From: Octopus sinensis | Lineage: Eukaryota | Direction of reading: 5' to 3' | Length of the DNA: 13,853 nt | Assembly: GCF_006345805.1 (NCBI RefSeq) | Contig: NW_021825958.1 | Coordinates: 1 to 13,853, forward strand | Shown: positions 1-13,468 of the stretch, in pieces | How the letters are laid out: the number at the start of each line of letters is the position of its first letter | Numbering within the stretch: position 1 is the stretch's first letter | Translations under genes and position numbers: made by a program | The notes under the pieces: model-generated | What the model saw: the letters and a program-made list of their open reading frames with translations, nothing else | The model's database searches: none | Told to the model about the DNA's origin: nothing

Positions 1-734
1 TGTCCCTTAGAAACGTCCAGTTGTCCTCTACCCCCTGTGATACTCTCTTATCCCCTTCTACTTCGTCAAGGCTTCAAGTACATGTCTCTAAATCTCTGTC
101 CATTCACAGGATCCTTAAGCTTCCAGATCCTTCTTCCCATGTTGGTCGTCTTCTGGTTGTCCTCATACTCCTGATCCTAAAGTCACTAACTACCAGTCTA
201 TGTTGTGGGGTACATTCTTCGCCTGGGAAGGTTTTGGCATTTATAAGTAGCCATCTCTCCCTTTGCCTGGCAAGGATGTAGTCAATTTGGCTGGTATGTT
301 GGCCCGATCGGTAGGTGACTAGGTGGCTGGTAGGTTTCCTGAAGTTAGTGTTGCAAATCATAAGATTATTTGCATCGCAGAACTCCAGCAGCCTGGTCCC
401 TCCTCGTTGCGGGAACCACAGCCATAGCCTCCATGTACGCCATGGAAGCCCCCAGCATGTCGTCCAACGTGACCATTGAAGTCACCAGCCACAAAGAGAA
501 GGTCTCTGTCATTCGTCAACGAGGTAGTCTGCAGTAGAGTGTCATAGAATCGGTCTTTCTGTCCATCAGGTAGCCCCGACTGAGGAGCATAGGCTGATAT
601 AATGGTTGCTAAACTATGATGAAGCGCTAATCTAATCTTAAGTATTCTGTCGCATACTCTGATTACCTCAATTACTTTATCTACCCATTTCTCAGCGATA
701 AGTATACCCACGCCTCCAACCCCGTCAGTGTTCC
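1..734 (-). mobile_element. RTE-clade LINE relic, apurinic-like endonuclease domain (CFDP2-like), frameshifted and 5'-truncated
   Basis: ORFs 358..753 and 104..361 give NTDGVGGVGILIAEKWV...ISAYAPQ...AGDFNGHVG...GYG.G.RNEEG and CNTNFRK...TYRSG...SQIDYIL...QHRLVVSDF, the typical RTE endonuclease motif series, split by a frameshift near 390; similarity ends at 734. Confidence 0.93.
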
Positions 735-1035
735 AAAGGGCGTCTGCTTGCATGTGTGTGTGTGTGTGTGTGTAAATGTGTGTGTGCGTGCGTGCATGCA
801 GCGCACATTTGAAAATGGTGTCACAGTGTTATATGTACAAATTAGATATAAGCTTGTTACCACTTCAAATCAAAATGTCTAAAAACATATTTGTAGTGAT
901 AAAATGTTTGTGTGTGTGTGTATATATATATATATTTATTTATATATTTATAGTATATATATAATTTATTTATATATATTATATATATATATTATATATA
1001 GATATATATATAATTATATATATATATATATATCC

Positions 1036-2341: not shown

Positions 2342-2931
2342 ATGATCGATGTGTTTTATTGTGTACAGAAGAATATATTACTGAAAGAAATTCCAGCTTT
2401 GATTTCCACGTTTTATTTAGAATCTTAATATAATATAAGATAATATAATGAAATGATAGAATATTAACTGTCCGTTCTGATTGAACTAGTACTTTCATGC
2501 ATTATACTACGCAATCCTCAGGTTCATGTAGTAATTCTGACAGTTATGTTTCACAATTTACAACTGTAGTGAGATGGCTAAACTGTGTGCCTTAAATACA
2601 TTTGTGTAGGCTGCAGAATGTTAAGTTTTGCAAACTGTAATTGCTTTCGAGGTGTACATCTATAACGACATTTACTCGGCTCGGAAATAAATTTGACTTG
2701 GGTCTTCCTATTGCACGTCATCTCGGGTAAAAATTTCTGGCTCAGAAACATCAAAATTCGATCACGTGGGACCATATGATTTTTCGTTAATTTCCGGATT
2801 TTTTATTTATTTATTTACTTTTCGCACGCCGTGTTCAGCTCTATGAATTTTGTAATCAGTCACAGAAGCATACAAACACACACGTACACCCATTATCTTT
2901 CATATACACGTACATGTATAAATGCACGTTC

Positions 2932-3411: not shown

Positions 3412-3582
3412 ATTAGCAGACGGAAACTGTACAGAAGCCCATCATATGCATATAGGTACATGCGTGTATGTGTTTGTGTGATTGTTTCTACCGCCGCTTA
3501 GCTACCGGTGTCTGTTGTTAACGTGCCCTTAAACTGGAGGTTTCGCAAAAAAGGACGAATGGATTAAGTACTTGATTAAAAA
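3412..3582 (+). mobile_element. Older internal fragment of SINE family B
   Basis: AGACGGAAACTGTACAGAAGCCC...(TG)n...GGTTTCGCAAAAAAGGACG...TAAGTAC matches the middle of family B with many substitutions. Confidence 0.7.
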
Positions 3583-3599
3583 TGAAATAAAATAAAATG

Positions 3600-3830
3600 T
3601 ATTTATTTACTGCCCACAAATGGCTAAACATAGAGGGGACAAACAAGGACAGACAAAGGGATTAAGTCGATTACATCGACCCCAGTGGGAGACTGGTACT
3701 TTATTTATCGACCCAGAAAGGATGACAGGCAAAGTCGACCTCGGCGGAATTTGAACTCAGAACGTAACGACAGACGAAATACGGCTACGCATTTCGCCCG
3801 GCGTGCTAACGTTTCTGCCAGCTCGCCGCC
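3600..3830 (-). mobile_element. Full-length SINE family A
   Basis: Minus strand GGCGGCGAGCTGGCAGAAACGTTAGCAC...GAGTTCAAATTCCGCCGAGGTCGACTTTGCC...GTGGGCAGTAAATAAATA; homologous to 2060-2245. Confidence 0.92.
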
Positions 3831-3857
3831 TTTAAGTAAAGTAAAATAAAAACCGTA

Positions 3858-4229
3858 AACTCGCTCTAAGATTTATTATTGCTTGATTACTCCTTTTCGA
3901 TATCAGTGTCTTTACGATACTGGAAAAGGGATAAGTGTTTGTGAAGGGAACCGACTTCTCATCGACAACTGTGATTGTCACACGCCGATGACGGATCAAT
4001 ACTCAGAAACTCGAGTCCGTGTGTATCATAAGTTGAAGACGGGAAGGATGGCTTCCCTTTGCAAACACTGATAGGGCACAGAAAGTGTGCCTAAAGCCAG
4101 CTGGAGGAGGTGTCCTCTTGGGGCTACAAACTACAGTAGCATCCACCCTTAGGGGTTAGCCATATTTAAATTGCAAATATACGTCACAATGTGTTGCAGC
4201 TACTGTTTATAACTCGCTCTAAGATTTAT
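3858..4229 (+). mobile_element. Penelope-like pLTR/retrozyme-like unit bounded by a 19 bp direct repeat
   Basis: AACTCGCTCTAAGATTTAT occurs at 3858-3876 and 4211-4229; the interior has a hammerhead-like motif and hairpins (~3891-3930, 4075-4091). Confidence 0.62.
3979..4023 (+). ncRNA. Minimal type I hammerhead ribozyme-like motif (CCGAUGA core variant)
   Basis: Stem I CACACG(3979-84)/CGTGTG(4018-23); core CCGATGA (3985-91); GAAA (4006-09); palindromic CTCGAG; GTC site with predicted cut after 4017. Stem II is poorly paired. Confidence 0.62.
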
Positions 4230-4280
4230 AATCGTAATTGTTTAGTTTAGTGATAAAAAAAAAAATTAAGGGTTTACTTT

Positions 4281-4593: not shown

Positions 4594-4978
4594 TCTTTAT
4601 ATATAAAAGTGAAGTTGTGTGAGTGTCTGTCTCCTACGATTTAGATTCCTAACTCCTCCCACATTTTGCGATGCAGTTTAACCAAAGCGGGTATCTTATA
4701 GTCGTGATTCATATCGAGCCCTTTGGGTATTAGCGCGCGTCTACGATGAGTCTACATTAAAGAAAAAATTACCATCAATTTTCCCATTTTTAATGCACTT
4801 TGGCATATATAAGGGAAGTAACTCTCTAAAAATTTATTATAAATCTCAGAACGTAAAAAGCTACAGTAACACCCCGCTTTGTGGTAACCATATTGGAGAT
4901 GGCTATATACTTTACATCTCTAAAATGCTTATATAGTTATTTCCCTTACAACCCGGCAACGCCGGGCGATACTGCTAG
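4594..4978 (+). mobile_element. Non-autonomous Helitron (385 bp)
   Basis: 5' TCTTTATATATAAAAG after a host A; subterminal hairpin CCCGGC-AAC-GCCGGG (4952-4966); 3' CTAG followed by a host T; no TSD. Confidence 0.88.
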
Positions 4979-7580: not shown

Positions 7581-7909
7581 GTTAAGGAGTTGATTCTGTT
7601 AGACTAATGTGTCAAAGTAGCTGGTTTCTAAGACAAGAGTTATTCTTTAGCCAGACAAACACTGGGCATAAATAACCAAGCCTCGCGTTTTACCAAGACT
7701 AAAGGTAATATTATTTTATAGTATTATGAACAATAGTAATCGTCGTCGTCGTCGGTACTACTTGAGAACAGTGGTCCCGGGTCGCGCACGTGCGTACTCG
7801 CGCATCCGCGCCAGCTAGTCATGACTGGCCGATCCTTACTTTGTGTTTTTGTTATTTACTTTGTGTTTTAAAAAAAAAGGATCTACTTTATTTACTTTGC
7901 TAGGTAGTC
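7581..7909 (+). repeat. Segment A, near-identical to 13141-13468
   Basis: GTTAAGGAGTTGATTCTG...TAGGTAGTC is present twice; I see only one substitution and one A-run length difference. Confidence 0.95.
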
Positions 7910-13011: not shown

Positions 13012-13468
13012 GGTACTTGTCTATTGTAGTGGTCCCGGTTTCGCACACGCGAATTCGCGCGCGCGCCAGACGCATGTACTCGATACTCGAGATCCTACGA
13101 GGGGACTTGCGCATGCGCAGTGCAGAATTCGCGCATGCGCGTTAAGGAGTTGATTCTGTTAGACTAATGTGTCAAAGTAGCTGGTTTCTAAGACAAGAGT
13201 TATTCTTTAGCCAGACAAACACTGGGCATAAATAACCAAGCCTCGCGTTTTACCAAGACTAAAGGTAATATTATTTTATAGTATTATGAACAATAGTAAT
13301 CGTCGTCGTCGTCGGTACTACTTGAGAACAGTGGTCCCGGGTCGCGCACGTGCGTACTCGCGCATCCGGGCCAGCTAGTCATGACTGGCCGATCCTTACT
13401 TTGTGTTTTTGTTATTTACTTTGTGTTTTAAAAAAAAGGATCTACTTTATTTACTTTGCTAGGTAGTC
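13012..13468 (+). repeat. Rearranged copy (B then A) of 7581-8161
   Basis: 13012-13145 matches 8028-8161 and 13141-13468 matches 7581-7909, overlapping at GTTAA. Confidence 0.93.

What the first reader, a model, noticed from the sequence alone, without database searches (positions are those of the whole stretch)
3858..4229. ~350 bp retrozyme/Penelope-like unit with a minimal, probably dimer-acting hammerhead
Seen: a 19 bp exact direct repeat brackets non-coding DNA with a perfect 6 bp stem I, CCGATGA, GAAAC-TCGA-GTC and further hairpins. Established: Penelope-like elements and metazoan non-LTR retrozymes carry minimal type I hammerheads with a palindromic stem III that cleave as dimers, and retrozymes give small circular RNAs. 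Inference: a cephalopod retrozyme/pLTR family; this copy may be inactive because stem II is mispaired.
Basis: partly seen in the sequence, partly recalled or inferred. Interest (0 to 1): 0.72.

Follow-up and report, generated by a model that had tools for sequence, protein, structure and literature searches.

The report
Penelope-pasted retrozyme with deviant hammerhead
This is one copy of a many-copy, protein-less 353-base repeat that carries a hammerhead (self-cutting RNA) motif and lands with the two fixed ends and mirror-image arms of Penelope retrotransposons, which likely paste it; this copy's ribozyme is predicted to be dead, and its whole subfamily carries two core changes that a younger sister subfamily lacks.

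Summary
The feature is real. 3858-4229 is 1.05 laps of a 353-nt ORF-less unit; the "19-bp direct repeat" is that overlap, not a target-site duplication. One 30-mer from the unit has 1,769 exact genomic matches.

In 66 insertions sampled without regard to the ribozyme, 95 of 108 arms end at one of two sites about 45 nt apart. Of 28 classifiable inverted pairs, 27 use one site each. This is the Penelope tail and two-start-site footprint.

The hammerhead has canonical type I architecture and is not minimal. The window's subfamily carries U4C plus a C·A mismatch at the base of stem II, and this copy has a further private break. A younger sister subfamily has a textbook core (Rfam Hammerhead_1, E 6e-5) and arrays up to 7.1 units. 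Stem and palindrome compensations occur even among C·A lineages.

Cleavage, circles and the partner Penelope element are not shown. The scan has noted like elements on other DNA. Verdict: a variant of the known animal retrozymes.

The parts
3858..4229 (+). Whole insertion: 1.05 laps of the 353-nt unit, 5'-truncated at unit position 335 and ending at the 'long' 3' site; no inverted arm and no target-site duplication seen at this locus
3858..3876 (+).
   Evidence: other copies extend it upstream into the unit's 3' end
3877..4229 (+). One full 353-nt unit, subfamily A; 3.3% from the subfamily majority over unit positions 100-311
3934..4074 (+). Predicted long rod that carries the hammerhead at its tip
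   Evidence: prediction
3971..4029 (+). Type I hammerhead domain: distal stem 3971-3975/4025-4029, internal loop, stem I 3979-3984/4018-4023
3985..3991 (+). 5' core CCGAUGA (U4C variant; C at position 4 in 27 of 30 aligned copies)
3992..4005 (+). Stem-loop II: C·A at 10.1-11.1 (subfamily-wide), G-C, G·U, then a private A×C break at 3995/4002, U-A, 4-nt loop
4009..4016 (+). 8-nt palindrome (2-bp stem III plus tetraloop); predicted intermolecular stem III of a dimer
4017..4018 (+). Predicted self-cleavage site (after C17); not an insertion boundary
   Evidence: sequence
4187..4192 (+). 'Short' 3' end site of family insertions (inferred reverse-transcription start 1), in a predicted stem-loop
4188..4229 (+). 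Penelope-type tail, about 45 nt between the short and long 3' end sites; the window copy ends at the long site (inferred start 2)
   Evidence: concept from PMC11167929

Best explanation
The window holds a 5'-truncated, 1.05-unit copy of an ORF-less 353-nt hammerhead-bearing repeat (a non-LTR retrozyme) whose copies end at two fixed sites, and which was likely pasted by the reverse transcriptase-endonuclease of an unidentified Penelope-like element. Shown: the unit structure, subfamilies, two 3' end sites, inverted arms and TA-rich targets. Inferred mechanism: the Penelope protein cuts both strands of TA/AT-rich DNA; the two DNA ends prime copying inside the RNA, one at each of two sites about 45 nt apart; copying runs 5'-ward through the ribozyme site and stops at variable points, giving one arm or two head-to-head arms of 0.1 to 7 laps. 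The template is likely a circular monomer or a tandem transcript. In the young subfamily B, with its textbook ribozyme, dimer-assisted cleavage and circularisation are likely. In the window's subfamily A the ribozyme is predicted to be weak (U4C, C·A). This copy has a single hammerhead with a broken stem II, so it is predicted not to release a unit-length RNA.
For: Family size: 2,023 candidates, best 40 at 92-96% apart from the window itself; 1,769 exact hits of a 30-mer, control 0. Ends: in 66 distinct insertions from the first 100 of those hits, 108 arms end 52 at the short site, 43 at the long site and 13 elsewhere. 35 of 66 have head-to-head arms; 27 of 28 pairs with both ends classifiable have one short and one long end (binomial p 2e-7). 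71 of 95 such ends abut (TA)n. Two internal RT starts that define the tail, and AT-rich cutting of both strands, were shown in vitro for a Penelope element (PMC11167929). Partial tandems, inverted 5' copies and a one-sided tail are PLE hallmarks. Intact RT + GIY-YIG ORFs of 781 and 775 aa exist in the genome. Ribozyme lineage: subfamily B matches Rfam Hammerhead_1 at 32.2 bits, E 6.2e-5, with 758 exact hits of its stem II/III motif. Across 7 subgroup majorities, 0 of 11 core and 0 of 12 stem I positions vary, against 37 of 157 downstream columns. Two-sided changes occur in the distal stem, stem II and the palindrome. The predicted dimer of a typical A copy and of a B copy is the double-hammerhead fold. 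Read-through: only 1 of 52 arms that reach the cut site stops there. Locus-private changes are shared by 7 of 7 and 5 of 5 laps in two B arrays.
Against: No Penelope element sharing sequence with the unit was found among 89 loci holding 12 GIY-YIG clusters, so the partner is inferred from the footprint only. The B Rfam score is 1.8 bits under the gathering cut-off, and A and D copies give no hit. A mispair at 10.1-11.1 is normally grounds to reject a hammerhead, and U4C lowers activity (PMC3088659; PMC9901934). Dimer folds of a D copy, a U·U copy and the window copy were not the double-hammerhead fold. Core invariance alone is marginal (P about 0.05; 0.09 for D/E/A only), and covariation shuffles ignore relatedness. 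Most locus-private changes are not shared between laps (B 4 of 36, A 4 of 56), and shared ones could come from gene conversion or assembly polishing. In vitro the ribozyme was dispensable for Penelope insertion, and 8 of 9 predicted Xenopus retrozyme dimers did not cleave.
Confidence: 0.85

Rival explanations
1. The unit is a non-autonomous Penelope derivative whose hammerhead is vestigial in all subfamilies; it moves as uncleaved linear tandem transcripts, with no circles, and the motif persists as a protein-binding or structural element.
For: Ribozyme mutants insert normally in vitro and unprocessed RNA was the main substrate. No 5' ends pile up at the cut site (1 of 52). C·A and U·U subfamilies spread widely. 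Monomer folds give stem III probability near 0 in all 10 monomers tested.
Against: Compensatory change in the dimer palindrome (C-G, U·G, U-A) and invariance of the catalytic bases, while 37 of 157 downstream columns changed. A textbook core in B coincides with longer arms and more two-ribozyme arrays. Read-through at the cut site is equally expected of a ligated circle.
Confidence: 0.3
2. The copies are 5'-truncated stumps (pLTRs) of a coding Penelope element.
For: Same ends, tail and inversions as coding PLEs. Earlier scan notes reached this reading for other hammerhead modules.
Against: Upstream sequence returns into the same 353-nt unit, up to 7.1 laps. Among 127 5' flanks, shared sequence was essentially the unit's own diverged part in subfamily D. 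The oldest subfamily also shows about 355-nt partial tandems.
Confidence: 0.05
3. An ordinary SINE or satellite, with the 19-bp repeat as a target-site duplication.
For: Size, dispersal, and a 19-bp exact repeat flanking the inner part.
Against: The 19-mer recurs inside nearly all unrelated copies. No poly(A) end is visible. The two fixed 3' ends and inverted arms are not SINE or satellite features.
Confidence: 0.02

Closest known systems
Metazoan non-LTR retrozymes (Cervera and de la Pena 2020, PMC7229834; parts 2-4 of 6 read): mussel 350-390 bp repeats, axolotl Rtz_353 with a U·U pair at the base of helix II
   Same: ORF-less tandem unit of about 350 nt, one type I hammerhead per unit with a 2-bp stem III and tetraloop, self-paired fold, co-existence with PLEs
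   Different: No cephalopod family appears in the parts read. This lineage has C·A, C·U, U·U and G-C states at 10.1-11.1 and a U4C core. Most insertions are under two units. Circles and cleavage are untested here. The paper only proposes PLE mobilisation, whereas here the insertion ends show the PLE footprint.
Vertebrate retrozymes as non-autonomous PLE derivatives (Li et al. 2026, bioRxiv 10.64898/2026.07.22.740005; parts 1-3 of 5 read)
   Same: Monomers, dimers and short arrays; PLE dependence proposed
   Different: Their evidence is co-occurrence and pLTR homology. No homologous pLTR was found here, and the evidence is end mapping. The window copy fails their 'active' rule of two consecutive hammerhead units.
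Endonuclease-bearing Penelope-like elements: PAc of Anolis (Frangieh et al. 2024, PMC11167929; parts 1-2 of 4 read) and insertion anatomy in Craig et al. 2021 (passages)
   Same: Two internal start sites defining a tail, AT-rich targets, partial tandems, inverted 5'-truncated arm, hammerhead upstream of the start sites
   Different: No ORF; the tail is about 45 nt rather than 30-40; the one-short/one-long rule for paired arms was not seen in the passages read.
Minimal PLE hammerheads (Cervera and de la Pena 2014, PMC4209133; parts 1-2 of 4 read)
   Same: Palindromic helix III region, predicted dimer action
   Different: Min-HHRs have a short helix I, a long helix II, a conserved G10.1-C11.1 pair and little or no helix III; this motif has canonical helix sizes.

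Membership tests
Metazoan non-LTR retrozyme | ORF-less unit of 150-450 bp in head-to-tail repeats | tested here: met
   353-nt unit; arrays to 7.1 units in B and 2.4 in A; window 1.05; longest ATG frame 27 aa
Metazoan non-LTR retrozyme | Type I hammerhead with consensus core in each unit | tested here: inconclusive
   Met by subfamily B (38 of 39 with CUGACGA, 39 of 39 with G-C; Rfam E 6.2e-5 but under gathering). Subfamily A and the window deviate at U4 and 10.1-11.1 and give no Rfam hit
Metazoan non-LTR retrozyme | At least two consecutive hammerhead units ('active' rule of Li et al. 2026) | tested here: not met
   The window copy has one. Exact-motif direct pairs: B 16 of 55 insertions, A 0 of 91, although 3 of 29 best A-like loci are direct near-dimers
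Metazoan non-LTR retrozyme | G+C under 50% | tested here: met
   0.43 over 3751-4250
Metazoan non-LTR retrozyme | No LTR, PBS or PPT; TSD longer than 4 bp when present | tested here: inconclusive
   No LTR pair and no TSD visible at the window locus; most ends sit in (TA)n where a TSD cannot be read; PBS and PPT not searched
Metazoan non-LTR retrozyme | Self-cleavage (as dimer) and accumulation as linear and circular monomers | not testable with these tools
   Folding predictions only
Penelope-like element (autonomous) | ORF with RT and GIY-YIG endonuclease | tested here: not met
   None in the unit; PLE ORF pieces near some copies belong to several unrelated families, mostly across (TA)n
Penelope-type insertion footprint | Partial tandem, inverted 5'-truncated arm, one-sided tail, AT-rich target | tested here: met
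   35 of 66 insertions have inverted arms; 95 of 108 ends at two sites about 45 nt apart; 71 of 95 abut (TA)n
Minimal PLE hammerhead (min-HHR) | Helix III absent or vestigial, helix I 4-5 bp, helix II 7-8 bp, conserved G10.1-C11.1 | tested here: not met
   6-bp helix I, 4-5-bp helix II, 2-bp helix III with tetraloop

The most novel reading that the evidence does not exclude
This lineage is a natural experiment on whether retrozymes need their ribozyme. Older subfamilies (D, E, A) spread with a C·A mismatch at the normally G-C base of stem II, A adding U4C, while keeping the catalytic bases and co-varying the dimer palindrome. That would make it a weak or protein-assisted hammerhead variant whose extra C also locks the monomer by pairing with the cleavage triplet. 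The lineage then passed through C·U and U·U to a textbook G-C core, at which point long rolling-circle arrays appear. Paired arms further show that a Penelope enzyme primes the same retrozyme RNA twice, once at each fixed site.
Probability: 0.3. Interest if true: 0.7.

Novelty: new variant of a known kind. Interest (0 to 1): 0.47.

Why it matters
Which enzyme moves animal retrozymes, and whether the ribozyme and the circle are needed, are stated as open in the papers read. This family gives direct genomic evidence of a Penelope-type mechanism: two fixed start sites, one per inverted arm. It also offers a graded series of natural hammerhead cores in one 353-nt backbone, with measurable differences in array length, so cleavage rate, circle formation and insertion length can be compared directly. 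The window copy itself is very probably an inert repeat.

Tried and rejected
RNA evidence: no RNA holder was listed on record. Contigs of three runs guessed to be RNA and one unlabelled large run were laid on the window and on a B unit. They carry family sequence of several subfamilies, but contigs cannot show strand, ends, level or circles, so they are not used as evidence either way.

Depth step: a step near the cut site suggested copies truncated at the ribozyme. Direct end mapping rejected this (1 of 52), and the step was much weaker on the B reference.

Partner search: GIY-YIG loci (30 of 150 hits, plus 16 wider regions), 7 neighbouring regions, 30 copies of one young PLE family and 6 other hammerhead loci were compared by blastn and by a profile of the unit. 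Only copies of the unit itself were found. L125 looked like a PLE-retrozyme fusion but has (TA)n between the two. L230 is a direct junction, but its PLE arm ends 28 nt short of where the other 29 copies end, so it stays a single weak candidate.

Other checks: a genome-wide Rfam RF00163 search scored only 74 candidates and returned other hammerhead families, not this one. The TSD reading of the 19-mer was rejected.

Literature: no paper on an octopus retrozyme or on a C·A pair at 10.1-11.1 surfaced. An octopus repeat annotation has 0 mentions of ribozyme or retrozyme in its main text. Lunse et al. 2017 and Nelson and Uhlenbeck 2008 were not held and may cover such variants. No supplements were read, and Repbase and Dfam could not be searched.

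Full report
Observation. The described features are all present at the stated coordinates. A hammerhead descriptor hits once in the window and never in 500 shuffles, and the inner 334 nt fold far better than shuffles (z = -6.95). Rfam finds no hammerhead in the window.

What the unit is. The genome (2.7 Gb) gave 2,023 candidates for the inner sequence, and the best 40 were 92-96% identical apart from the window itself. In 30 aligned loci the 19-mer is part of the element: upstream of it, copies continue into the element's own 3' end. The unit is 353 nt (3877-4229), and the window holds 1.05 laps. A 30-mer from the unit has 1,769 exact matches against 0 for the reversed control, a lower bound on family size. 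No ORF over 27 aa lies in it.

How it lands. I took the 66 distinct insertions among the first 100 listed hits, a sample chosen without regard to the ribozyme but limited to one chromosome. Of their 108 arms, 52 end at unit positions 305-317 (window about 4187-4192), 43 end at positions 348-13 across the unit junction (window about 4229-4237), and 13 end elsewhere. Thirty-five insertions have two head-to-head arms. In 27 of the 28 pairs with both ends classifiable, one arm ends at each site (p = 2e-7); 7 pairs had one unclassifiable end and were left out. Seventy-one of 95 ends abut (TA)n. 5' ends are scattered, and only 1 of 52 arms reaching the predicted cut site stops there.

Why this points to Penelope. 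Partial tandems, inverted truncated arms and a one-sided 30-40 bp tail are Penelope hallmarks (Craig et al. 2021, passages). For a purified Penelope protein, the tail was shown to be the stretch between two internal reverse-transcription starts, with both strands of AT-rich DNA cut and extended (PMC11167929). I infer that a Penelope enzyme primes this RNA once from each DNA end, at the two sites. The genome has intact RT + GIY-YIG ORFs, but none of 12 GIY-YIG clusters in 89 loci shares sequence with the unit, so the partner is unidentified.

The ribozyme. A variant seen led to a sister subfamily B: 758 exact motif hits, about 84% identical to the window over the whole unit, with a textbook core and 5-bp stem II. 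It scores 32.2 bits on Rfam Hammerhead_1 (E 6.2e-5, gathering 34). Among 125 hammerhead-bearing segments the groups, with their 10.1-11.1 state, were:
- D: 18 segments, C·A in 13, median 7.2% from the group majority
- E: 4, C·A in 3, 4.1%
- A: 36, C·A in 33, CCGA core in 29, 2.8%
- C·U: 9, 2.4%
- U·U: 5 with CCGA (1.4%) and 13 with CUGA (3.8%, a mixed group)
- G·U: 1
- B: 39, all G-C, 1.0%
These are not a random sample. A midpoint-rooted FastTree of up to 8 rows per group places D and E apart (support 1.0) and B beside a U·U clade (0.73-0.93). With the divergences, this suggests C·A first and G-C last; the order among A, C·U and U·U is weakly supported. Exact A-type motifs number 108, and the broad motif 1,156.

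Was the C·A ribozyme under selection? For: 0 of 11 core and 0 of 12 stem I positions differ between 7 group majorities, against 37 of 157 downstream columns (crude P 0.05 for the core and 0.001 for 25 positions; 0.09 and 0.004 for D/E/A alone). The palindrome changes on both sides (C-G in D, U·G in E, U-A in A), as do one distal-stem pair and pair 10.2-11.2 (14 distinct hand-picked rows; the shuffles ignore relatedness). The predicted dimer of a typical A copy and of a B copy is the double hammerhead.

Against: D, U·U and window dimers did not fold that way. A mispair at 10.1-11.1 is normally disqualifying, with U·U the best tolerated (PMC3088659, section 8 and passages). U4C lowers activity in vitro but was enough for a viroid in vivo; a CCGA hammerhead self-cleaved in a 2026 preprint (passages); and a mutational scan found low activity for changes in that turn (passages). 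In all 10 circular monomer folds stem III probability was about 0. In the two structures printed for natural A and B monomers, a GAC in the 5' core pairs with the cleavage triplet, and the C comes from position 10.1 in A and position 7 in B (prediction only). I put self-cleavage by typical A dimers at about 40% and by B dimers at about 75%.

Ribozyme state and array length. A-like arms (best match to the A reference at 90% or more, which includes C·U and some U·U copies) have a median of 155 nt, and 4 of 39 exceed one unit. B arms have a median of 387 nt, and 22 of 40 exceed one unit (p = 0.0015). Sixteen intermediate arms (median 380 nt, 10 over one unit) were left out of that test, and they show that long arms are not confined to B. 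Direct two-ribozyme tandems occur in 16 of 55 B insertions and 0 of 91 A insertions, while inverted pairs occur in 12 and 9 (Fisher p = 0.005; first 100 listed hits of each). Age and a different partner enzyme are alternative causes. Laps of one B arm differ by 0.67% against 1.76% between insertions, and two arrays share a locus-private change in every lap (7 of 7, 5 of 5), but only 4 of 36 private changes are shared. This fits a circular template without proving it.

This copy. It belongs to A, ends at the long site, has one hammerhead, and carries a private A3995 that removes stem II in both monomer and dimer folds. It is predicted not to release a unit-length RNA and is very probably inert.

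Comparison and novelty. It works like the animal non-LTR retrozymes (PMC7229834; Li et al. 2026). At family level it meets the features testable here, with B meeting the core test and A failing it. It is not an autonomous PLE and not a min-HHR. The searches made found no cephalopod retrozyme paper, no end mapping of retrozymes to the two-site footprint, and no C·A variant, but two relevant papers were not held and no supplements were read. The scan had no look-alike by sequence but has unreviewed notes on similar elements in other genomes, so the footprint is not unique to this family. Verdict: a new variant of a known kind, interest 0.47.

Noticed in passing
window 2350-2639 (-): Fragment about 79-82% identical to the 3' end (hammerhead-bearing pLTR) of the coding Penelope-like family at L125.
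   Followed up: partly
window about 3570-3832 (-), with related copies near 2069-2340: Extremely abundant repeat (far deeper than the retrozyme) whose head, read on the minus strand, looks like a tRNA-derived SINE with A and B boxes (motif recognition recalled; ARAGORN finds no tRNA). It lies head-to-head 26 bp from the retrozyme.
   Followed up: no
L230 4296-6066 (G000:C1:76382000-76391000): One block between TA tracts joins a Penelope-like 3' arm and an inverted ORF piece directly to a subfamily-B retrozyme arm: a candidate chimeric insertion.
   Followed up: partly
L237-L266: A young Penelope-like family (2,136 candidates) has a hammerhead-like pLTR motif with the U3-A8 core covariation and a 2-bp stem II in at least 25 of 30 copies.
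   Followed up: no
L125 (rc 4760-4810) and L091: The pLTR hammerhead of another coding PLE family also has U·U at the base of stem II, and CCGA in one copy.
   Followed up: no
L118, L122, L123, L125: Intact RT + GIY-YIG ORFs (775-781 aa) are preceded by an overlapping upstream frame of up to 479 aa in two families, suggesting a two-ORF or frameshifted organisation.
   Followed up: no
L031-L037: A second, unrelated type I hammerhead family passes Rfam's cut-off, with a pair about 431 bp apart and an inverted arrangement.
   Followed up: no
window 734-919 / 1568-1753 and 7581-7877 / 13141-13437: A 186-nt inverted repeat at 97% around a TA-rich core, and a 297-nt exact direct duplication 5,560 nt apart.
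   Followed up: no
L034 2482-2938, L104 3114-3202: Still more diverged fragments of the 353-nt unit, one as an inverted pair, suggest subfamilies older than D.
   Followed up: no
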